DNA of 37,252 nucleotides from a virus. Lineage: Duplodnaviria; Heunggongvirae; Uroviricota; Caudoviricetes. The stretch is from IMG/VR virus record IMGVR_UViG_2563366981_000002, positions 1-37,252 of that record. One strand, written 5' to 3'. Position 1 is the stretch's first letter. Each line of letters opens with the position of its first letter. A model generated the notes under the pieces. That model was given only the letters and a program-made list of their open reading frames with translations. It was not told the origin of the DNA and searched no databases. The position numbers and the translations under genes are program-made. This document shows positions 1 to 22,041 of the stretch, one piece after another.

Positions 1-1053
1 TTACGGGGTAATGCCAACCGCTGCCGCCACTTTGTCGCCACTTGGCAGCGTTGCCAGAGGATTGAAACGGAGCGCCGTTTCCAGATGATCCGGTGCCAGA
101 TGTGCGTAACGCATCGTCATTTTTATATCGTGATGTCCGAGAATTTTTTGTAAGGCCAGGATGTTTCCACCCGACATCATGAAGTGCGCTGCAAACGTAT
201 GGCGCAGAACGTGTGTGAGTTGACCGCGAGGGAGCACGATAGACGTTTTTTCCATCACGGATAAAAATTGAAAATAGCAGTCTGTGAAGAAATTGAACCC
301 ATCAAGCGCCATGATCTCTTCGTAAAGCTCTTTACTGATAGGGATGCTTCTGTTTTTCTTCCCCTTCGTTCTTACAAAGGTAATTCGGTATTTGGTCACC
401 TGTGAACGAGTAAGATTTACGGCTTCTCGCCAGCGTGCGCCTGTGCTTAAGCATATCTTAACTACCAGTGCCAGAATTGGGTCCTGACGTTTGCAATCAG
501 CCAGTAATTCAACAATCTGCTCATGGGTAAGCCATGCCATCTCTTTTTCTGCGATGGTGAATTTTCGCATGTTCTCCAGTGGGTTCGGATACGACCATTC
601 GCCCAGGCGGGATAGTTCGCTAAAAACACTACTAAGATAGCTTTGCTCCAGGTTAATGGTGACCGGGCTTGCTCCTTTCTTCCATTTTTCGCTGAAGTAG
701 ATCTCTCCTGTCAGGCGTTTATCTCGATAGTGGGCAAACATTTTAGAGGTGAGATCGGTTGCAAGGGGATTGCCCAGAGCGTCAACTATCAACAGCAATT
801 TGTCATAGACATGCTGCCCAGCTGTCAGAGATTTACCATGTAGTTTGAACCATAGCTCAACCACGTCTTTCAGTGTTCGACGATCCACTGATTCACCCAG
901 CCAGGGCTTTGCTTCGGTTTCTTCCATCGTGTGACGCTCAAAAGCCAGAGCTTCACCTTTGGTGGCGAATTGTTTACGCACACGACGTCCACTACGTCCC
1001 GCGGGGTAACATTCGCATAGCCATTTTCCTGTGGTGAGTTTTCGTACTGCCAT
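1..1053 (-). CDS. int: tyrosine integrase (P2-type)
   Basis: 350-aa ORF; C-terminal catalytic signature (...HVLRHTFAAHFMMSGGNILALQKILGHHDIKMTMRYAHL...); first gene at prophage left end; RBS GGAGGG 9 nt upstream of ATG. Confidence 0.9.
   Translation of the reverse strand: MAVRKLTTGKWLCECYPAGRSGRRVRKQFATKGEALAFERHTMEETEAKPWLGESVDRRTLKDVVELWFKLHGKSLTAGQHVYDKLLLIVDALGNPLATDLTSKMFAHYRDKRLTGEIYFSEKWKKGASPVTINLEQSYLSSVFSELSRLGEWSYPNPLENMRKFTIAEKEMAWLTHEQIVELLADCKRQDPILALVVKICLSTGARWREAVNLTRSQVTKYRITFVRTKGKKNRSIPISKELYEEIMALDGFNFFTDCYFQFLSVMEKTSIVLPRGQLTHVLRHTFAAHFMMSGGNILALQKILGHHDIKMTMRYAHLAPDHLETALRFNPLATLPSGDKVAAAVGITP
19..40. repeat. putative attachment core copy (attL), inside the 3' end of int
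   Basis: CGCTGCCGCCACTTTGTCGCCA; matches 34398-34419 with one mismatch. Confidence 0.55.
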
Positions 1054-1077
1054 AAAAAATGCCCTCCAGTGGAGAGC

Positions 1078-1106
1078 ATTTTTACTGTATGTATAACCAG
1101 TGTCAA
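1078..1106 (-). promoter_or_regulatory. putative int promoter with operator-like dyad
   Basis: Minus strand reads TTGACA, 16-nt spacer, TAAAAA; the spacer contains CTG-N10-CAG (plus strand TACTGTATGTATAACCAGTG, 1083-1102), resembling a LexA box. Confidence 0.35.
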
Positions 1107-1142
1107 TGTATATGAATTAAGATTCATACATTGAGGTTAATT

Positions 1143-1748
1143 TTATCTTTCTACTTCCCAGCGTAGAGATTGCATTAACATAGCATAAATATTGAACAGG
1201 AAAGTTTTTAAAGTTAATACAAGGAACACTGCACTGCTTCCTACGAGTATATATAGTATTTGAACTCCAACAACTTTAGTGCAATGAGAAAACATTAAGG
1301 CTCTGAGTAATTTTGTAGCCAATCCATTTTCTTGCCCGAAAAGAAGGACTAAAAGATAGATAACAGACCAAAATATGAAATATATAAATACTCTCATAAA
1401 TACACCATAAACATATTTTAAGTAACTTATCCCGTATAATGGATGCTTATACTCCATTAATGAAAGGAAAAGTTCAGGTTTATTTATGGTTGCAAATATT
1501 GTAAATCCAGTAATTAAAAAACCTAATGTTGTTGTAGTGAATCCGAATACTAAAGGTGTCCATTGTCTAATAGATGAAATTAACTCTGGTGATGAAGATA
1601 GACAAAAAGCATTAATAGATAATAATATCACTAACAATAATGTGAAATAAAAGTCAAATGAATTGACCTTTATTTTTTTAGTTAATTTGTAAACATCATG
1701 CAAAGATCGCTCTTTGGTCAGATCTTCTGGGTTGAATGTATATTTCAT
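1143..1748 (-). CDS. accessory small membrane protein (about four predicted TM helices); function unknown
   Basis: 201-aa ORF with four hydrophobic segments; AT-rich; start 1 nt after the stop of the upstream ORF (translational coupling). Confidence 0.7.
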   Translation of the reverse strand: MKYTFNPEDLTKERSLHDVYKLTKKIKVNSFDFYFTLLLVILLSINAFCLSSSPELISSIRQWTPLVFGFTTTTLGFLITGFTIFATINKPELFLSLMEYKHPLYGISYLKYVYGVFMRVFIYFIFWSVIYLLVLLFGQENGLATKLLRALMFSHCTKVVGVQILYILVGSSAVFLVLTLKTFLFNIYAMLMQSLRWEVER

Positions 1749-1749
1749 A

Positions 1750-2799
1750 CTATAGCCACCTAGAAATTATTGATGTTAACTTGGAAAAAATTTTAGTATA
1801 ATCTTCACGTTCTGGAATAATAATATTTCCTTCATCCTTTAATTCTGTGAATGCAGAATACGCCTCTTGAGCAGCTCTTTCCAAATCAGAACTAAGTTGT
1901 GGCCTTGATGCTTTTAGAGTAAAACTATCATTATTCCCTGATAGCCTTGCTCCGTGTTCATCTTTACCACTGATAATTACTTTAGAGTTGGCCATTCGGG
2001 TTGCACTTGTTGTTTTTTGAATGACGGCCTCAGAATTTAAACCATCTTCATTTTTATTTGTGTATACTAATTGAGCTTTACTACTATTAAGTTCTTCTTT
2101 TTCTTGTTCAATTTTCCTCCAGAAGCCATCAAGAGATATATTTTCACTATTTGTTGGCAATAACTCAATTGATAATCTATTAACAACAGAAAAGAGTTCA
2201 ACAAAATTGCTCAATGATCTTGGGTCTGTTAAGGGGGTAACCCGTAATTTGGGGGCTCCTAGTTTACGATAAATATCTTTTTTATACAGTCGATCAATGT
2301 ATGATTTTTTCTTTCTAATTCTTTTATTTTTTTTTACTTCGTAATCCACAAAAGAATTATATCGCTGTGCAAGGCAATACTTGCTAGTATTTTCAAATTC
2401 TTCTAGGGTAGGGGCTCCAGAAACCTCTTTGCAAAGCATTAATCTGTGCTCATTAAGCATAAGAATAAAAATAGAGCTGGGGTGACTTTCTAGCGTCCTG
2501 TGATCTCGAATTAATTGACCATCTTGAAATATTTGATCTCGTTTAAATATGGTCTTTTTTATAATGCGGCCACACAATGCAATTGTTGGAACTATAGGAC
2601 CAATAAAATCTGAATCTGTAGTATCTAACGTAATAATTTTTGTGTCAGTAAAGAAATATTCTGTATCTTTAAATTTTCTAACGTATTTTTGTGCGAAAAA
2701 TGAAGGAAAAACAATGCAATCAAAAGCATCTAAGAGAACTTTGTCCTCTCCAAAATTTAAGGTATAGTTTGCAAATTCAATAGTTTTCGTAAAGCTCAT
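1750..2799 (-). CDS. accessory soluble protein, 349 aa, no motif recognised
   Basis: Long ORF, AT-rich, Lys/Asn/Ile-rich; start 2 nt after the repressor stop; between repressor and int where P2 has no gene. Confidence 0.7.
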   Translation of the reverse strand: MSFTKTIEFANYTLNFGEDKVLLDAFDCIVFPSFFAQKYVRKFKDTEYFFTDTKIITLDTTDSDFIGPIVPTIALCGRIIKKTIFKRDQIFQDGQLIRDHRTLESHPSSIFILMLNEHRLMLCKEVSGAPTLEEFENTSKYCLAQRYNSFVDYEVKKNKRIRKKKSYIDRLYKKDIYRKLGAPKLRVTPLTDPRSLSNFVELFSVVNRLSIELLPTNSENISLDGFWRKIEQEKEELNSSKAQLVYTNKNEDGLNSEAVIQKTTSATRMANSKVIISGKDEHGARLSGNNDSFTLKASRPQLSSDLERAAQEAYSAFTELKDEGNIIIPEREDYTKIFSKLTSIISRWL

Positions 2800-2801
2800 T
2801 G

Positions 2802-3743
2802 TTAAACCCTTTTTCTAATTATTCCTTTAACTTTATTATTAAATTCCAAATCTTCTTTATCGCATTCAAAGCTATATTTTGTGTTTTCAACGCGGATGCG
2901 ATTGTTTGGAAGTTTAAATATGTCTCTAAAAGTAAATTCTCCGTTAATAGATACTAACCATAGACCATCGCTAAGATACTCCTCTTTGCTAATGATATAT
3001 GAATCATTTGCGGAATTAACTATATAGGGATGTTTTAGATTTTGAGGTAAAATTTCGCTCGAAACGATTAATTCTCTTTGATCAGTAAGTTTGCCGTCAC
3101 GTAGATCATAGCAGTCTAATGTAAGCAACCCACTTAGCTTTGTTTGATTGGAATGCCCCTTACCAAAAGATAACCACTCGAGAGACACTCCTGTTTCTAA
3201 ACAGCATTGGATGATCCAGTCTGCCGGAAAAATGTCTCGCATGTATCGTGTAGCTAATGTGCTTTTTGAGATACCAAGGTGATCGGCTAAGGCTTGGCGC
3301 GTTTTGTAACCGTAAGCCTTAACAATTCGCTCTATTGCTGCTTTACCCCCTCGAGTGAAATCCATGTGGTTTTCATTATCGAACTTTATCGTGGGGGTGT
3401 GAACTTCATTGCAAAATTCATCTGCAGACTGTTTTTCAGCATGCCGTTCTGGCGAAGGAACTGGCACTCCTTCTTCAGCATCTAAACCAAATGCTAACCA
3501 TTCGATTGATGCGCCAGTTTCCATTGAACATATAACAACCCAATCAGCAGGGAAGGTATCGCGTGCATATCTGTTAGCCATTGTACTTTGTGAAATACCA
3601 AGGTGGTTACAGAATGCTTGGCGTGATTTGAAACCATAGGCCATGAGTATTCTCTCAATGACTTTTTGCCCTCCTCGATTCTGCATGACCATGGCTTTCA
3701 GATGATCTTCAATATGGCGAAATGTGATTTTATTAGTTGACAT
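2802..3743 (-). CDS. CI-type immunity repressor with tandem duplicated HTH domain and S24/LexA-like C-terminal domain
   Basis: Two internal repeats (…ERILMAYGFKSRQAFCNHLGISQSTMANRYARDTFPADWVVICSMETGASIEWLAFG / …ERIVKAYGYKTRQALADHLGISKSTLATRYMRDIFPADWIIQCCLETGVSLEWLSFG) resembling the 186 CI N-terminal fold; C-terminus has GEFTF motif like lambda CI; divergent from Apl/Cox-like gene. Confidence 0.75.
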   Translation of the reverse strand: MSTNKITFRHIEDHLKAMVMQNRGGQKVIERILMAYGFKSRQAFCNHLGISQSTMANRYARDTFPADWVVICSMETGASIEWLAFGLDAEEGVPVPSPERHAEKQSADEFCNEVHTPTIKFDNENHMDFTRGGKAAIERIVKAYGYKTRQALADHLGISKSTLATRYMRDIFPADWIIQCCLETGVSLEWLSFGKGHSNQTKLSGLLTLDCYDLRDGKLTDQRELIVSSEILPQNLKHPYIVNSANDSYIISKEEYLSDGLWLVSINGEFTFRDIFKLPNNRIRVENTKYSFECDKEDLEFNNKVKGIIRKRV

Positions 3744-3765
3744 ATTCTTTATGCGAACCTATTCT
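3737..3765 (+). promoter_or_regulatory. putative rightward early (lytic) promoter
   Basis: TTGACA (3737-3742), 17-nt spacer, TATTCT (3760-3765); the -35 overlaps the repressor start codon. Confidence 0.3.
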
Positions 3766-3831
3766 CCGTTTTGTGAAGTTTTCGTCACGATTAATACCGG
3801 CTCACCACAAGCCAATAGGAGATGTTGCATC

Positions 3832-4053
3832 ATGACCCCTAACATTTCAATAACTCTGAATACGCCGCACGTCACAATTGAGCGTTATAGCGAACTTACT
3901 GGTCTTTCTATCGACACAATCAACGATATGCTGGCTGATGGTCGCATCCCTCGTCATCGCCTTCGGAAAGACAAGAAAAGAGAAAAGGTAATGATCAACC
4001 TTGCTGCTCTTACCGTTGATGCACTTACTGATTGCAATGTTGTATTCAACTAG
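3832..4053 (+). CDS. Apl/Cox-like excisionase / switch regulator
   Basis: 73-aa basic protein from internal ATG of ORF 3724-4053; first rightward gene facing the repressor. Confidence 0.6.
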
Positions 4054-9801: not shown

Positions 9802-10035
9802 ATGCGCATTGAAATAATGATCGATAAAGAGCAGAAGATTAGCCAGTCTACCCTGGACGCCCTTGAATCCGAGCTTTACCGTAATCTGCGCCCCCTGTAT
9901 CCCAAAACGGTAATTCGTATCCGCAAAGGTAGCTCTAACGGTGTGGAACTGACCGGACTGCAACTGGACGAAGAAAGGAAGCAAGTGATGAAAATTATGC
10001 AGAAGGTGTGGGAAGACGACAGCTGGCTGCATTAA
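9802..10035 (+). CDS. DinI-like protein
   Basis: 77-aa protein (MRIEIMIDKEQKISQSTLDALESELYRNL...WEDDSWLH) with DinI-like length and motifs; GAGGTG RBS. Confidence 0.8.
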   Translation: MRIEIMIDKEQKISQSTLDALESELYRNLRPLYPKTVIRIRKGSSNGVELTGLQLDEERKQVMKIMQKVWEDDSWLH

Positions 10036-10157
10036 GAAACGTTGCTGGCGTCTGAACTTGCTTCTGGCGTCAGCAAGGTTGAACAACGAGCTGTGCGAGG
10101 CGTTAGTTGATATAGTATCAATATATAAAAGGTTTCTCGAAGTTTTAAGGTAAGGTT

Positions 10158-10877
10158 ATGACAACTATTAACAAGCATGGGTTATCTAGAACAATTCCTG
10201 AACCTGTAAAACTGGAGGTAAGGCAGCGCTGTGGCTTTGGTTGCGTTGTTTGTGCTTCTCCCATTGTTGAGTATGAGCATGTAATTCCCACATACGCTGA
10301 TGCAAAGGAGCACTCTCCAAATGCAATAGCACTACTTTGTCCTACGTGCCATGCGAAAGTAACGAAACGTCTTTACTCTAAAGAGAAAATAATTAAAGCA
10401 ATGGAATCTCCTGCAGCCTTACAAAAAGGGAATGTGGCCGATATATTGGACTTTTCTGATAGGCATCCAACAATAATATTTGGTGGTGCGACGTTTGAAT
10501 CCTGTACTGTACCAATAATGTTTCAAAATGAGCCATTGTTAACCATTGAAAAAGAAAATAATGCTTTTCTTATTTCGGGTAAATTTTACGATAGTCAAGG
10601 TATTGTTAATCTTGAATTAATTAAGAATGAGTGGGTTTGTAGTGCAAGGCATTGGGATGTTCAGGTTGTTGGTCCTAGAATAACTATTATAGAAAAAAGG
10701 AAAGGTCCTCGTTTAATTATTAAAGTTGATGCGCCTGAAAGATTGATTGTGGAAAGATTAGATATGTTGGTTAAGGGGACTCGGATTGTAGGAGACGAAC
10801 ACAAGCTAAGAGTCGGTCCACATCAATTTCACAACTGTGGAGTTTCAAATTGCAATATTGGTTTCTGCTTTGGCTAA
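10158..10877 (+). CDS. HNH-endonuclease-domain protein with unknown C-terminal domain
   Basis: N-terminal CGFGCVVC...EYEHVIP...N...CPTCH (CxxC, EH, N, CxxCH HNH signature); markedly AT-rich; adjacent to cos-like motif. Confidence 0.75.
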   Translation: MTTINKHGLSRTIPEPVKLEVRQRCGFGCVVCASPIVEYEHVIPTYADAKEHSPNAIALLCPTCHAKVTKRLYSKEKIIKAMESPAALQKGNVADILDFSDRHPTIIFGGATFESCTVPIMFQNEPLLTIEKENNAFLISGKFYDSQGIVNLELIKNEWVCSARHWDVQVVGPRITIIEKRKGPRLIIKVDAPERLIVERLDMLVKGTRIVGDEHKLRVGPHQFHNCGVSNCNIGFCFG

Positions 10878-10990
10878 CTGGAGGTTGGAAAAAGACCATT
10901 TCCTGTAAGCTGAGTATTTCGTACATTTTTGCCAACGCATGTCTATGTCGCATGAAATCGCATGATCGTTTGAGGATCGTTTTTGCTGAT

Positions 10991-11018
10991 GCCCGCCAGA
11001 GCTGGCGGGCTTTTGCTT
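10991..11018 (+). terminator. rho-independent terminator after the HNH gene
   Basis: GCCCGCCAG / CTGGCGGGC stem followed by TTTTGCTT. Confidence 0.5.
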
Positions 11019-11059
11019 ATGTCATGCAGGTGCATGAAAACCACTACACAAAGCGGGCA

Positions 11060-11078
11060 GGCGTGGCGGGGATACGAG
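11060..11078. other. cos-like motif (putative cohesive-end site)
   Basis: GGCGTGGCGGGGATACGAG followed by GCGCGC; resembles the recalled P2/186 cohesive-end sequence; correct position and orientation relative to the portal gene. Confidence 0.4.
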
Positions 11079-11166
11079 CGCGCGCAATAGGGTTATGTAC
11101 AATAAATTTTTGACGATCTTCGAGTGTTATTAGCTTGAGGCTGTCAGGGAAAATGAATACAATAAG

Positions 11167-11198
11167 AAGCGCCTAGCAGAATGTTACTAGGCGCTTCG
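11167..11198. terminator. perfect hairpin between converging transcription units
   Basis: GAAGCGCCTAG, 10-nt loop, CTAGGCGCTTC; T-rich flank on the minus strand. Confidence 0.35.
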
Positions 11199-11230
11199 AA
11201 TATATAACCTGTATGACTTTCTTAACCTAC

Positions 11231-11338
11231 TTATCTTTTTGATTTCTTCTTCGTATCATCGTGATCGAATACTTGGCGGGTAGGCGGCTTGCTGGGTGGT
11301 GGCGGCGGCGGTAAATTAGATTTCTCATTTTTGCTCAT
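11231..11338 (-). CDS. polyproline micro-protein C (35 aa)
   Basis: MSKNEKSNLPPPPPPSKPPTRQVFDHDDTKKKSKR; AGGAAAA RBS; ATG overlaps the stop of micro-ORF B. Confidence 0.4.
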   Translation of the reverse strand: MSKNEKSNLPPPPPPSKPPTRQVFDHDDTKKKSKR

Positions 11339-11462
11339 CTTTATTTTTCCTATTTTTTGGATCATTGCCATAGCTTTCTCTAACTAACCGAGTGATTGGC
11401 GGTTTAGGTGGTGGTGGTGGTGGTGGTGCTTCATTTTTTTTAGGATTTTTGTGTTCGGTCAT
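11325..11462 (-). CDS. polyproline micro-protein B (45 aa)
   Basis: MTEHKNPKKNEAPPPPPPPKPPITRLVRESYGNDPKNRKNKDEQK; AAGGA RBS 8 nt upstream; paralogous to A and C. Confidence 0.45.
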   Translation of the reverse strand: MTEHKNPKKNEAPPPPPPPKPPITRLVRESYGNDPKNRKNKDEQK

Positions 11463-11577
11463 TTTTATCGTCCTTTCTGTCTCTTCGTAGTTGCCTTGCT
11501 TTTGAATCATCTTCAATAACGATCCTTCTTGCGGGTGGAGTAGGCTGAGGAGGTGGTGGCGGTAACGGTTTGGTCAT
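11440..11577 (-). CDS. polyproline micro-protein A (45 aa)
   Basis: MTKPLPPPPPQPTPPARRIVIEDDSKARQLRRDRKDDKNDRTQKS; AGGAG RBS 7 nt upstream; TAATG overlap with the membrane protein gene. Confidence 0.45.
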   Translation of the reverse strand: MTKPLPPPPPQPTPPARRIVIEDDSKARQLRRDRKDDKNDRTQKS

Positions 11578-12227
11578 TAAGTTCTCCTGACATTTTCAAT
11601 AGGTATTATCAAATAGTTAGGGGCGTTATTTTTCCGCGGTGATGCTGCATCTAAATCAGCTAAAAGAAATATGACTACTGCTGCGATAATTGGAATCCAT
11701 GACCAGACAAGATACTTTGTTGACTCAAATAGTTTACTGGAACGTTCTTCATTGATATTACTGTTCCAGCTAGCACACTCTCTGATTTCTTGATGAATAA
11801 ACTCCCAAAGTTTATTATCAGGGTTATAACTTTCATCGTATGTAAGTCCATTGTCATCGCAATATTTTTTATATTTCACTTCGTAACTAATCAGATCTAT
11901 GTGATAATCATGCAATGCTTTAGGTGCAGGGCAATACTTAAATTCATTTCCCCATATGACTTGTTTCAACAGAATTGATGATACAAGAACTAAGCCAAAT
12001 GAAATTGCGGTACATAAAAATACTAGGCAAGCTAGCCTTGGGTGGGATTCATAAGATGTGTTTTTGGCGAGATAAGTGAGTATAGTTGCGGTAATGACAA
12101 CTAATCCGAATTCGGCTTGAGCGCGAGTATGTATCTTGTCTTTATTCTCAATTTCTGAGAAATAAAGTTTTTCGTAAAATTCTAATGCTTTATCCTTTTT
12201 CATTTTTAGATTCAGTGTGATGTCCAT
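11577..12227 (-). CDS. accessory membrane protein (three predicted TM helices)
   Basis: 216-aa ORF, AT-rich, hydrophobic segments at about residues 40-55, 65-87 and 175-195; lies between the cos-like motif and the portal gene. Confidence 0.7.
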   Translation of the reverse strand: MDITLNLKMKKDKALEFYEKLYFSEIENKDKIHTRAQAEFGLVVITATILTYLAKNTSYESHPRLACLVFLCTAISFGLVLVSSILLKQVIWGNEFKYCPAPKALHDYHIDLISYEVKYKKYCDDNGLTYDESYNPDNKLWEFIHQEIRECASWNSNINEERSSKLFESTKYLVWSWIPIIAAVVIFLLADLDAASPRKNNAPNYLIIPIENVRRT

Positions 12228-12248
12228 GTATCAAACATATCACGATAA

Positions 12249-12278
12249 CAAAAAAAGAAAAGCCGCAATTCTGCGGCT
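12249..12278 (-). terminator. rho-independent terminator downstream of the portal gene
   Basis: AGCCGCA / TGCGGCT stem, then TTTTCTTTTTTTG on the minus strand. Confidence 0.5.
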
Positions 12279-12296
12279 GTTGGGAAGCTAATCTAG

Positions 12297-13325
12297 CTAT
12301 AATTCGTAATTTGTGAACCCTATCGCGTTTTTATCCAGCCATTTATTAAGCTCCTCAAAGCGTCTCTGAAGCGGAATAAGTTCATTACGAACGAATACGC
12401 GGCTGGCCTTCTCCACATCCCCAAATCCCCCAACATTATTAGGCATAATCCCCATCATTTGCGGTGGCACACGATGCGCCGCCATCATGTCATCCCGGCT
12501 CACGTTCTTGATGTTTAGAAACTCATCCTTCGCCGCGACTTCTGACAGAGGAATGATCTGAAGCCCATCCTTTTTGCCGTTAGGCGAGTACATAAACAGG
12601 TTGCGGAAGTTACCCGGTCCTTTGGCGCTTTTCATCGCATTGCGGAGGTTGTTCACATCCTCCTGGTTCTGCGCGGCATCGGTCATGTACATGATGAAGC
12701 CTGCATGACTACCGTTAATGTAATACTTCCGGCGGAACAGCGTGGCGGACTCGTTGAGCAAAGCGGATGGGATGGCAGAAAGATAGCCGGGCAGGCCGTA
12801 GATCTCCTGATTAATATCCGGTTCCATCAGATGAAAAATGCTGCCTTTCGTGAACTGATACGGCTGGGTTGTCATACCGTATTGCACAAACCAGTAGGTA
12901 TCCAGGTCTAACCCGCGTCGGGTATATTTTGCCAGAGCAGGCTCAAGGGCGATAACTTCACCGAAGCGGTTCGTGCGTTTCTCCAGATAAGCGTTACCAA
13001 ATACCAGATAGTCCTGCACAAAACGTGAAAAAGCCTGCTGGCTGAGCAGCGGGTGAGGGATGTAGGTACTGGTCAGTATGTTGCATTTCACCGCAATTGG
13101 TGAACTGTGATGCACGGCAGCGCGGAAGGTGCGCGCCAGTCCGTCAAAGCTTACTGGCGGCTCATACCAGTGATCTGTCTGTACGCATTCCACATAGTCC
13201 AGCAGTTCTCGGCGGTCCAGAACAGGAACGGGATCGCCGAAGCTGAATGCTTCGGCTGTAGTTTGACTTTTAAGCTGGATCTGTTTCGTCGCCGAAGCGC
13301 GGTTCTTCTTACTCTTTCCCATCAA
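12297..13325 (-). CDS. Q: portal protein
   Basis: 342-aa ORF, leftward, cos-proximal, ATGA-coupled to terminase; P2 Q-like position. Confidence 0.9.
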   Translation of the reverse strand: MMGKSKKNRASATKQIQLKSQTTAEAFSFGDPVPVLDRRELLDYVECVQTDHWYEPPVSFDGLARTFRAAVHHSSPIAVKCNILTSTYIPHPLLSQQAFSRFVQDYLVFGNAYLEKRTNRFGEVIALEPALAKYTRRGLDLDTYWFVQYGMTTQPYQFTKGSIFHLMEPDINQEIYGLPGYLSAIPSALLNESATLFRRKYYINGSHAGFIMYMTDAAQNQEDVNNLRNAMKSAKGPGNFRNLFMYSPNGKKDGLQIIPLSEVAAKDEFLNIKNVSRDDMMAAHRVPPQMMGIMPNNVGGFGDVEKASRVFVRNELIPLQRRFEELNKWLDKNAIGFTNYEL

Positions 13326-21106: not shown

Positions 21107-21685
21107 ATGAACGCACAATTAACCGAAATCATGCGCCTTATCACCAACCTGATCCGCACTGGTGTAGTCACCGAAGTGGACCGGGAACACTGGCTTTGCC
21201 GGGTGAAAACGGGCGACCTTGAAACCAACTGGATTAACTGGCTGACGCTGCGCGCGGGTAATGCCCGCACATGGTGGAAACCATCGGAAGGTGAGCAGGT
21301 GGTGCTACTGAGTCTGGGCGGCAATCTGGAGACGGCCTTTGCGCTGCCCGCTGTCTATTCGAATCAGTTCGCACCACCGTCGACGTCGGCGGACGCCTGC
21401 GTGACAGAACATCCTGACGGTGGCTGGTTTGAATACGAACCCGCCAGTGGGCGCTGGTATGTCAGGGGCATCAAATCAATGGTCATTGAGGCCGCTGACA
21501 ACATCACCATGAAAACCAGTGAGTTTGTACTGGAGGCTGACCGCACGCGCATTAACAGCGAAGTGGTGATCAATGGTGGCGTTACCCAGGGCGGCGGAGC
21601 GATGAGTTCTAACGGGATCGTGGTTGATGCGCATCAGCATACTGGCGTCCTGAAAGGCGGCGATACCACCGGAGGTCCGGTATGA
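21107..21685 (+). CDS. V: baseplate spike / assembly protein V
   Basis: 192 aa, first gene after the late promoter dyad. Confidence 0.8.
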   Translation: MNAQLTEIMRLITNLIRTGVVTEVDREHWLCRVKTGDLETNWINWLTLRAGNARTWWKPSEGEQVVLLSLGGNLETAFALPAVYSNQFAPPSTSADACVTEHPDGGWFEYEPASGRWYVRGIKSMVIEAADNITMKTSEFVLEADRTRINSEVVINGGVTQGGGAMSSNGIVVDAHQHTGVLKGGDTTGGPV

Positions 21686-22041
21686 CGCTTTATAGCGGGA
21701 TGAACAATACCAGCGGTAAAGCTATTACTGATATTGACCATCTGCGCCAGTCGGTGCGGGACATTCTGCTGACACCGCAGGGTAGCCGCATTGCCCGCCG
21801 GGAATATGGTTCCCTGCTGTCGGCTTTAATAGATCAGCCACAAAATCCGGCGTTACGCCTGCAGGTCATGTCGGCTGTGTATGTGGCACTGAGTCGCTGG
21901 GAGCCACGGCTGACGCTGGATTCCATCACCATCAACAGCAATTTTGACGGTTCAATGGTGGTGGAGCTGACCGGGCGGCGGAATAACGGTGTGCCTGTGT
22001 CCCTTTCCGTATCAACAGGAGCAGAGAATGGCAGTGATTGA
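21682..22041 (+). CDS. W: baseplate protein W
   Basis: 119 aa; ATGA overlap with V. Confidence 0.8.
   Translation: MTLYSGMNNTSGKAITDIDHLRQSVRDILLTPQGSRIARREYGSLLSALIDQPQNPALRLQVMSAVYVALSRWEPRLTLDSITINSNFDGSMVVELTGRRNNGVPVSLSVSTGAENGSD

What the first reader, a model, noticed from the sequence alone, without database searches (positions are those of the whole stretch)
1143..2799. Repressor-coupled two-gene cassette (soluble 349-aa protein + four-helix membrane protein): RexAB-like architecture
Seen in sequence: the CI-type repressor gene, a 349-aa soluble ORF and a 201-aa four-TM ORF lie head-to-tail on the minus strand with 1-2 nt spacers, between repressor and int, where P2 has no genes. 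The block is visibly AT-rich against the GC-richer backbone. Established knowledge: this copies the lambda cI-rexA-rexB layout, where a soluble sensor and a four-helix membrane effector are expressed with the repressor in lysogens and cause abortive exclusion. Inference: an analogous, possibly non-homologous, two-component exclusion system; I recognise no catalytic motif in either protein.
Basis: partly seen in the sequence, partly recalled or inferred. Interest (0 to 1): 0.8.

Follow-up and report, generated by a model that had tools for sequence, protein, structure and literature searches.

The report
RexAB-like exclusion gene pair in prophage
A 186/P2-type E. coli prophage carries, wedged into its repressor-integrase operon, an unannotated two-gene cassette. 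Its soluble protein has the fold of phage lambda's RexA and its partner is a four-helix membrane protein, so it is most likely a distant, previously unlabelled relative of the classic RexAB "suicide on infection" phage-exclusion system.

Summary
CI (2802-3743), a 349-aa soluble ORF "A" (1750-2799) and a 201-aa four-helix membrane ORF "B" (1143-1748) lie head-to-tail on the minus strand, with 2-nt and 1-nt spacers. They sit between cI and int of a 186-like prophage, in a block of 31.6% GC against 50.7% for the window.

A belongs to a large family (703 clusters at 50% identity). In 26 fetched loci from several phyla (23 distinct), a B homologue lies immediately downstream. These pairs sit either in the CI-int slot of enterobacterial prophages or next to restriction-modification and Abi genes. 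Sister E. coli prophages carry other defence cargo (GmrSD+HEPN) in the same slot.

Verdict: a divergent RexAB-type module expressed with the repressor, probably abortive-infection. It is a new member of a known kind (Rex / Sbash / CarolAnn / Sucellos). The anti-phage function itself is inferred, not shown. Identity with the published Sucellos system could not be tested.

The parts
1750..2799 (-). Gene A: 349-aa soluble protein with a RexA/RdgC-type two-domain fold; the putative cytoplasmic sensor.
1143..1748 (-). Gene B: 201-aa four-helix inner-membrane protein with a conserved LGFLxxGFTIFA motif in helix 2 and FNIY..RWE at the C-terminus; the putative channel/effector.
   Evidence: ORF. Hydropathy. 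AlphaFold model with four long helices. Alignments. A homologue lies immediately downstream of A in 26 fetched loci, 23 of them distinct.
2802..3743 (-). CI-type immunity repressor with two tandem HTH domains plus a CI_C domain. It is the first gene of the lysogenic operon and is translationally close-coupled to A.
   Evidence: Pfam Phage_CI_repr 2.5e-57 (two stretches) and Phage_CI_C 1.3e-19. Stop-to-start spacing of 2 nt.
1112..3156 (.). The swapped, AT-rich cargo module: B, A and the last ~118 codons of cI (the CI_C domain).
   Evidence: Homology to sister E. coli prophages that carry other cargo stops at window 1111 and resumes at 3157. GC is 31.6%. The CI C-terminal domain is only ~33-35% identical between cargo types, against >85% for the N-terminal part.
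1055..1139 (-). Two strong RNA hairpins between B and int. The second (1055-1083) is an A5 / GC-stem / U6 terminator-like hairpin that contains the int Shine-Dalgarno sequence and ends 1 nt before the int AUG. It lies in the conserved backbone, not in the cargo.
   Evidence: strand folding gave MFE -33.5 kcal/mol, z = -6.8, with 0 of 200 shuffles as stable. The conserved region extends to 1111.
1..1053 (-). Tyrosine integrase, the last gene of the lysogenic operon. The prophage is inserted next to rcdA.
   Evidence: Pfam Int_N and Phage_integrase. RefSeq context.
3737..3765 (+). pR-like early lytic promoter (TTGACA-17-TATTCT) facing the cI start. The convergent lysogenic promoter pL, which would drive cI-A-B, is inferred by analogy with 186 to lie about 3820-3860(-), at the start of the apl-like gene.
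   Evidence: Consensus scan. The 186 annotation of pR/pL is and the alignment around the apl start. The pL position is an inference only.

Best explanation
A and B form a divergent RexAB-type two-component phage-exclusion (abortive-infection) module. It is carried as swappable cargo inside the lysogenic cI-int operon of a 186-like prophage.

Shown: A has the RexA/RdgC two-domain fold. B is a four-helix membrane protein encoded immediately after A. The pair is strictly conserved as a unit across phyla and is under purifying selection. It sits in a slot where sister prophages carry other defence genes, and elsewhere it sits beside restriction-modification and Abi genes.

Inferred: in lysogens the pair is transcribed from pL together with cI and translated in a fixed ratio through the 1-2 nt couplings. 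By analogy with lambda RexA, Sbash gp30/31, CarolAnn gp44/43 and Sucellos SclAB, an A dimer senses a product of superinfecting-phage development, such as a protein-DNA intermediate. It then activates oligomeric B to open a pore or channel. The membrane depolarises, ATP falls, the infected cell stops growing or dies, and the phage yields no burst.
For: - Architecture and coupling.
- A weak but co-linear profile match puts A 270-286 (ANSKVIISGKDEHGARL) on RexA 212-228 (QFSDISLRAKDEAGDIL). That RexA segment holds D215, R219 and K221, which matter for conformation and DNA binding.
- B: four hydrophobic segments conserved from E. coli to Polyangium and Armatimonadetes, the same count as for RexB and CarolAnn gp43. 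The best TM-score among viral models is a 165-aa Sbash protein, the published size of the RexB-like gp31 (size from PMC6426606).
- Co-occurrence: all 26 fetched loci in which sequence downstream of A is available (23 distinct) have a B homologue directly downstream.
- Context: CI-A-B-int in Enterobacter and Silvania. Elsewhere the pair lies next to type I R-M, NERD, RE endonuclease, DUF2806/Abi_alpha, WYL and YgjP genes. ResIII was found in 7 of 94 flanking proteins.
- Hotspot: GmrSD+HEPN, or another gene, occupies the same slot in sister E. coli prophages. A cI-int defence hotspot is already described for Vibrio P2-like phages (PMC9122126).
- Precedents with measured anti-phage activity: Sbash, CarolAnn, Butters and Sucellos.
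Against: - No phenotype was tested.
- There is no sequence-level link to RexA, RexB, CarolAnn gp44/43 or any PADLOC model.
- RdgC scores nearly as well as RexA, so the fold alone does not prove a Rex function.
- The resemblance of B to RexB-like proteins is not statistically significant (best E = 0.38; Sbash hit E = 2), and lambda RexB itself was not among the top 50.
- Even for lambda the sensing and channel steps are a model. RexA also has a separate role in the lysis-lysogeny switch (PMC11077077).
- Transcription from pL is inferred from the 186 layout only.
Confidence: 0.65

Rival explanations
1. The pair mainly serves the prophage's own lysis-lysogeny decision rather than defence. A, like RexA, would bind DNA and/or CI and stabilise the lytic state after induction, and B would antagonise A. 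Any exclusion of other phages would be a by-product.
For: Lambda RexA biases the CI-Cro switch, interacts with CI, and is antagonised by RexB (PMC11077077). Here the cassette is embedded in the lysogenic operon. The swapped module includes the CI C-terminal domain, which would fit a functional A-CI connection.
Against: The same A-B pair occurs without any CI or integrase, next to type I R-M and Abi-like genes, in Mesorhizobium, Alteromonas, Halomonas, Desulfuromonadaceae, Armatimonadetes and others. It also occurs with a different, single-HTH CI in Enterobacter. Sister prophages put overt defence genes in the same slot.
Confidence: 0.15
2. The pair is a membrane-level superinfection-exclusion or addiction (toxin-antitoxin-like) module that only shares a common fold with RexA. 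B would be a toxic or DNA-entry-blocking membrane protein and A its cytoplasmic regulator, with no abortive-infection logic.
For: B is a small multi-pass membrane protein, and membrane proteins expressed in lysogens often block DNA injection (established knowledge of Sie proteins). Tight translational coupling and strict pairing are also typical of toxin-antitoxin pairs. The fold match for B is non-significant.
Against: The best structural match of A is specifically RexA, and the gene order (soluble then four-helix membrane protein) is that of every validated Rex-like system. No PADLOC, Pfam or NCBIfam toxin-antitoxin or Sie model hits either protein.
Confidence: 0.12
3. A is an RdgC-like recombination or nucleoid-associated DNA-binding protein, and B is an unrelated accessory membrane protein. 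The module would modulate recombination or replication rather than defence.
Against: RdgC genes are not paired with membrane proteins. A is obligatorily paired with B, is AT-rich mobile cargo, and lies in defence neighbourhoods.
Confidence: 0.05

Closest known systems
Phage lambda RexA/RexB (Pfam PF15969/PF15968; RexA structure 8TWQ)
   Same: The order is repressor gene, then soluble protein, then four-helix membrane protein, all on one strand in the immunity region. A's predicted fold has RexA as its best solved match. Both have a beta-hairpin motif aligning with RexA 212-228. B has four membrane helices, like RexB.
   Different: There is no detectable sequence similarity and no Pfam RexA/RexB hit. 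A is 70 residues longer and B 57 residues longer. The spacers are 1-2 nt, against 112 and 15 nt in lambda. The host phage is a 186/P2-type myovirus, not a lambdoid. The family is also common outside prophages.
Actinobacteriophage Rex-like systems: Sbash gp30/31, CarolAnn gp44/43, Butters gp30/31 (the 'DUF4747/CarolAnn' system)
   Same: Each is a soluble ~370-aa protein plus a four-helix membrane protein. They are expressed in lysogens (CarolAnn with its repressor) and related to RexA only remotely, through a weak DUF4747 signal. RefSeq labels A 'DUF4747 family protein' in some genomes. B's best TM-score among viral models is a 165-aa Sbash protein.
   Different: There is no profile-level similarity to CarolAnn gp44 or gp43. 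DUF4747 does not reach E<=1 for the window protein and only 2 of 58 family members reach it. The host phylum differs.
Sucellos (SclA/SclB), V. cholerae superintegron cassette 68
   Same: It is described as structurally RexAB-like yet missed by the Rex Pfam models. It is a two-gene system in which both genes are required, it is abortive, and its homologues are reported mostly in enterobacterial (Salmonella) prophages. The A family is present in several Vibrio species.
   Different: Sequence identity or membership could not be tested, because the SclA/SclB sequences were not obtainable here. The Vibrio locus I examined shows no attC-type repeats.
RdgC (E. coli recombination-associated DNA-binding protein, 2OWL)
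   Different: RdgC is a housekeeping, unpaired chromosomal gene. A is mobile cargo that is always followed by B.
Kiwa (KwaA four-TM protein + KwaB DUF4868)
   Same: It is a two-gene defence system made of a four-helix membrane protein and a soluble DNA-binding protein.

Membership tests
Lambda RexA family (Pfam PF15969) | Significant match to the RexA sequence profile | tested here: not met
   No PF15969 hit at E<=1. The control, lambda RexA, scores 1e-97. BLASTP and hhalign against RexA are non-significant.
Lambda RexA family (Pfam PF15969) | Split globular domain plus inserted dimerisation domain (the RexA/RdgC fold) | tested here: met
Lambda RexA family (Pfam PF15969) | Homodimer with non-specific DNA binding | not testable with these tools
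   Needs SEC-MALS and EMSA. The only pointers are a basic helix at 150-180 and K279 aligning with RexA K221.
RexAB-type two-component exclusion system | The soluble component is immediately followed by a four-helix membrane partner, and the two are conserved as a pair | tested here: met
   In all 26 fetched loci with downstream sequence (23 distinct), a B homologue lies directly downstream.
RexAB-type two-component exclusion system | Expressed in lysogens together with the immunity repressor | tested here: inconclusive
   Same strand, 2-nt and 1-nt spacers, and no convincing terminator between the genes. The position is inside the 186-type pL/pE operon. No transcript data.
RexAB-type two-component exclusion system | Excludes superinfecting phage by membrane depolarisation / abortive infection | not testable with these tools
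   Experimental only.
Lambda RexB family (Pfam PF15968) | Match to the RexB profile or fold | tested here: not met
   No PF15968 hit (control 8.5e-92). hhalign is non-significant. Foldseek against viral models gave no hit at E<=1e-3, and lambda RexB is absent from the top 50. Only the four-helix topology is shared.
DUF4747 (Pfam PF15931) | Match above the Pfam threshold | tested here: inconclusive
   No hit at E<=1 for the window protein. Two of 58 family members match, best E 0.098. The precomputed hits are marked 'faint'. RefSeq nonetheless labels WP_001556499.1 as DUF4747 in 2 of 11 genomes.
Sucellos (SclA/SclB) | Sequence homology to V. cholerae SclA and SclB | not testable with these tools
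   The sequences are not retrievable here: the supplement is truncated and no V. cholerae genome is held. The qualitative descriptors match.
CarolAnn gp44/gp43 - Sbash gp30/gp31 family | Sequence or profile similarity to gp44 and gp43 | tested here: not met
   hhalign probability 0.1% for both.
Kiwa | KwaA/KwaB (DUF4868) profile match | tested here: not met
   No PADLOC hit for A, B or 58 family members.
Defence-cargo hotspot of P2/186-like prophages (cI-int slot) | The same flanks carry different, often defence-type, cargo in related prophages | tested here: met
   GmrSD+HEPN in strain 504239, and a 325-aa unknown protein in Ec1120, at the same rcdA-adjacent prophage slot. Breakpoints are at 1111 and 3157. 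998 E. coli genomes share the flanks and 11 share the cargo.

The most novel reading that the evidence does not exclude
A/B would define a large, pan-bacterial sister branch of the Rex superfamily (at least 703 clusters at 50% identity) that current defence-annotation models miss, and that works differently from lambda Rex.

Two observations allow this reading. First, the N-terminal domain of A carries an invariant or near-invariant polar set (N11, D24, R41, K81, Q89, H118, E125, within the motif SAPSSxFxLxLNNHRLxYxxET). This suggests a ligand-binding or catalytic site not reported for RexA. Second, in 186-like prophages the module is exchanged together with the CI C-terminal oligomerisation domain. 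This hints that the sensor is physically wired to the immunity repressor.
Probability: 0.15. Interest if true: 0.7.

Novelty: new member of a known kind. Interest (0 to 1): 0.45.

Why it matters
RexAB is the oldest known phage-exclusion system, yet its mechanism is still unsettled and it has been regarded as a narrow family of lambdoid and actinophage systems.

This work shows that a structurally RexA-like protein, strictly paired with a conserved four-helix membrane protein, forms a large family. It is found across Proteobacteria and also in Armatimonadetes, in 186/P2-type prophages of E. coli, Klebsiella and Enterobacter, and in chromosomal defence islands.

That gives many natural variants for dissecting how the sensor talks to the membrane effector. 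It also adds an unrecognised defence cargo to clinically relevant E. coli and Klebsiella prophages, which matters for phage therapy host range. Finally, it extends the cI-int cargo hotspot, described for Vibrio P2-like phages, to E. coli 186-like prophages.

Tried and rejected
- Sequence routes gave no link. Pfam, NCBIfam, PADLOC and PHROGs scans of A and B gave only phrog_10040 (unknown function) for A. BLASTP and hhalign against lambda RexA/RexB were non-significant, as were comparisons with CarolAnn gp44/gp43. Profile searches against PDB sequences found nothing relevant.
- Scanning 58 family members against PADLOC and Pfam found no known defence family; DUF4747 appeared in only 2 of 58.
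- Kiwa was rejected: no HMM hit and the opposite gene order.
- I tried to decide whether the pair is Sucellos. The held supplement is truncated and has no sequences or locus tags. A Vibrio sp. locus of the family has no attC-like repeat array. Cluster look-ups name V. parahaemolyticus, V. harveyi group, V. fluvialis and V. alginolyticus but not V. cholerae. The question stays unresolved.
- A guessed accession for phage Sbash (KP027195) turned out to be phage Cosmo, so CarolAnn was used instead.
- The search for related loci failed with the broad alignment A2. It timed out on viral contigs with A3. The single-protein viral scan returned only close relatives.
- The promoter and terminator consensus scans were no better than shuffled sequence. 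I therefore make no claim for an internal rexB-type (P_LIT-like) promoter at 1851-1822, which is only a 9/12 match.
- I tested whether the CI C-terminal domain co-varies with the A-B cargo. Identity was ~40% with the Enterobacter A-B carrier, against ~33-35% for carriers of other cargo. The difference is too small to conclude anything.

Full report
**Observation.** The window is a 186-like (Peduoviridae) prophage. It is 100% identical over 1000-3800 to prophages in E. coli ECE228, ECE218, H15 and others, inserted next to rcdA, and 99.3% identical to Klebsiella phage 4LV2017.

- int, 1-1053(-)
- a 201-aa ORF "B", 1143-1748(-)
- a 349-aa ORF "A", 1750-2799(-)
- a 313-aa CI repressor, 2802-3743(-)

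The junctions read TAA-ca-ATG and TAG-t-ATG, each with a Shine-Dalgarno-like sequence upstream. CI has two Phage_CI_repr HTH domains and a Phage_CI_C domain. B has four hydrophobic segments and four long predicted helices. A has no hydrophobic segment.

GC content is 31.6% over 1112-3156, against 48% in int and 50.7% for the window. In phage 186 itself, cI and int abut within the pL/pE lysogenic operon, so the pair is an insertion into that operon.

The genes are real. Compared with the 74%-identical Silvania locus, pN is 0.14-0.15 while pS is saturated at 0.73-0.79.

**What sequence methods say.** Nothing. Pfam, NCBIfam and PADLOC give no hit for A or B, and PHROGs gives only an unknown-function family for A. 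As a control, lambda RexA and RexB hit their own Pfam families at 1e-97 and 8.5e-92.

BLASTP and hhalign of A, or of its family profile, against lambda RexA are non-significant. So are B against RexB and both proteins against CarolAnn gp44/gp43.

RefSeq labels A "DUF4747 family protein" in 2 of 11 E. coli genomes. In my scans DUF4747 does not reach E<=1 for A, and it appears in only 2 of 58 family members. That label was still a useful lead. The actinophage literature links a weak DUF4747 signal to lambda RexA and to the validated Rex-like defence pairs Sbash gp30/31, CarolAnn gp44/43 and Butters gp30/31 (PMC6426596, PMC6426606, PMC7542560).

**What structure says.** An AlphaFold model of A built from 27 homologues is confident (pLDDT 86, pTM 0.85).
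- Foldseek against 350,542 PDB chains gives only two hits at E<=1e-3. Both are chains of lambda RexA 8TWQ (E 4e-5, probability 1.0). Global TM-scores are low (0.27-0.33), which is expected if the two domains are oriented differently.
- The order of secondary-structure elements fits RexA's split-globular plus inserted-domain topology: seven N-terminal strands with a helix, then a long helix, then an alpha/beta middle domain, then C-terminal helices.
- The only recurrent sequence signal is co-linear with this. A 270-286 (ANSKVIISGKDEHGARL) aligns with RexA 212-228 (QFSDISLRAKDEAGDIL), the hairpin that carries D215, R219 and K221.

I conclude with about 85% confidence that A is a remote RexA-fold homologue.

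For B the evidence is weaker. The model is good (pLDDT 81), but Foldseek against viral models gives no significant hit. The best TM-score (0.43/0.50, probability 0.57, E = 2) belongs to a 165-aa Sbash protein, which matches the published length of the RexB-like gp31. Lambda RexB is not among the top 50.

**Family and co-occurrence.** An exhaustive HMM search finds 703 clusters at 50% identity with E<=1e-3. Nearly all are 325-350 aa long and match over their full length. Named members are all "hypothetical protein" and come from Vibrio, Yersinia, Enterobacter, Kluyvera, Cronobacter and Mesorhizobium.

I fetched loci from the genome collection and from encoding contigs. In every one of the 26 (23 distinct) in which sequence downstream of A is available, a B homologue starts between -163 and +5 nt of A's stop on the same strand. 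These loci include Alteromonas, Shewanella, Halomonas, Rhodocyclales, Xenophilus, Desulfuromonadaceae, Polyangium and an Armatimonadetes MAG. B keeps four hydrophobic segments and the motifs LGFLxxGFTIFA and FNIY..RWE throughout.

**Context.** In Enterobacter cloacae and Silvania confinis the order is CI-A-B-int, as in the window.

Elsewhere the pair lies beside type I restriction-modification genes, a NERD nuclease, a restriction endonuclease, a DUF2806/Abi-alpha protein, a WYL regulator or a YgjP peptidase. ResIII occurs in 7 and HSDR_N in 3 of 94 flanking proteins.

In E. coli, 998 of 5426 complete genomes share the flanking int/cI sequences, but only 11 carry this cargo. Sister prophages at the same rcdA site carry GmrSD+HEPN, or a different 325-aa protein, in the slot. 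Homology breaks at window 1111 and 3157.

A cI-int defence hotspot was already described for Vibrio K139-like P2 relatives (PMC9122126). An int-primase hotspot holding 8% of P2 defence systems was reported in 2026.

**Mechanism (inferred).** The pair is probably transcribed with cI from the 186-type lysogenic promoter pL, and from pE during establishment. The near-zero spacers suggest translational coupling, so the A:B ratio would be fixed; that ratio is known to matter for lambda Rex.

By analogy with lambda Rex, Sbash, CarolAnn and Sucellos, A would sense an infection-specific cue and activate B. B would then depolarise the membrane and abort the infection. The presence of the pair outside prophages, in restriction-modification neighbourhoods, argues that defence is the ancestral role, rather than control of the prophage switch.

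Rivals are a switch-modulating role like that shown for RexA, a Sie-like or toxin-antitoxin-like membrane module, and an RdgC-like DNA-metabolism role. I give these about 0.15, 0.12 and 0.05.

**Comparison with what is known, and novelty.** The kind is known: Rex-like two-gene systems next to immunity repressors.

Two recent labels may already cover this family. One is the "DUF4747/CarolAnn" operons found downstream of CapK-CapS and restriction-modification systems (PMC13373217). The other is "Sucellos" SclAB from the V. cholerae superintegron. Sucellos is described as structurally RexAB-like but missed by the Rex Pfam models, with homologues mainly in Salmonella prophages. A Salmonella Welikade accessory pair of a "DUF4747 protein" plus a 606-bp gene, which is exactly the length of B, fits this picture.

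I could not obtain the SclA/SclB sequences, so membership is untested. I therefore rate the finding as a new member of a known kind, of moderate interest. It is a well-supported structural assignment for an unannotated cassette in E. coli and Klebsiella prophages, and it shows the Rex-like group is much larger and more widespread than its Pfam families suggest. It is not a new principle, and it has no phenotype yet.

Noticed in passing
window 10000-12950: A second AT-rich island (GC ~0.40) lies at the classical P2 hotspot between the replication/DinI-like genes and the portal gene. In the identical RefSeq prophage it holds a DUF4145 protein (~10164-10904, -), two hypothetical proteins (~11313-12008 and 12012-12662, +) and a small nucleotidyltransferase-domain protein (~12662-12943, +). 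This is probably another defence or toxin-antitoxin cargo.
   Followed up: no
window 2802-3743 (internal repeat 3162-3354 ~ 3486-3678): The CI repressor is 313 aa with two tandem Phage_CI_repr HTH domains, and the DNA copies are 67% identical. Phage 186 CI (~192 aa) and the Enterobacter CI (203 aa) have only one. This doubled-HTH CI is common in E. coli 186-like prophages.
   Followed up: partly
window 2802-3156: The right-hand recombination breakpoint of the cargo module lies inside cI, so the CI C-terminal (oligomerisation) domain is exchanged together with the cargo. This domain is ~33-35% identical between prophages with different cargo, against >85% for the N-terminal part. It is unresolved whether this reflects a functional link or just a convenient crossover point.
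   Followed up: partly
window 1055-1139 (-): The B-int spacer folds into two very stable hairpins (z = -6.8). The second, at 1055-1083, looks like a bidirectional intrinsic terminator. It sequesters the int GGAGG Shine-Dalgarno sequence and ends 1 nt before the int AUG, and a TTGACA-17-AAAAAT promoter-like site lies at 1106-1078. All of this is in the conserved backbone, which suggests int expression is uncoupled from cI and the cargo.
   Followed up: partly
window ~21360-22019 (-): A 219-aa hypothetical gene lies on the opposite strand, between the virion-morphogenesis and baseplate-V late genes. It may be another accessory or moron locus within the tail gene cluster.
   Followed up: no
L016:5091-5948 (Halomonas alkaliantarctica): The gene directly upstream of the A-B pair is a DUF2806/Abi_alpha protein. 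This is the same domain type as the 'Belisama' defence cassette of the V. cholerae superintegron, so two integron-type defence systems are adjacent here.
   Followed up: no
window 1750-2799, residues 11-130 of A: The family's invariant or near-invariant residues are concentrated in the N-terminal domain: N11, D24, R41, K81, Q89, H118, E125 and P130, within the motif SAPSSxFxLxLNNHRLxYxxET. This could mark a binding or catalytic site not described for lambda RexA.
   Followed up: no
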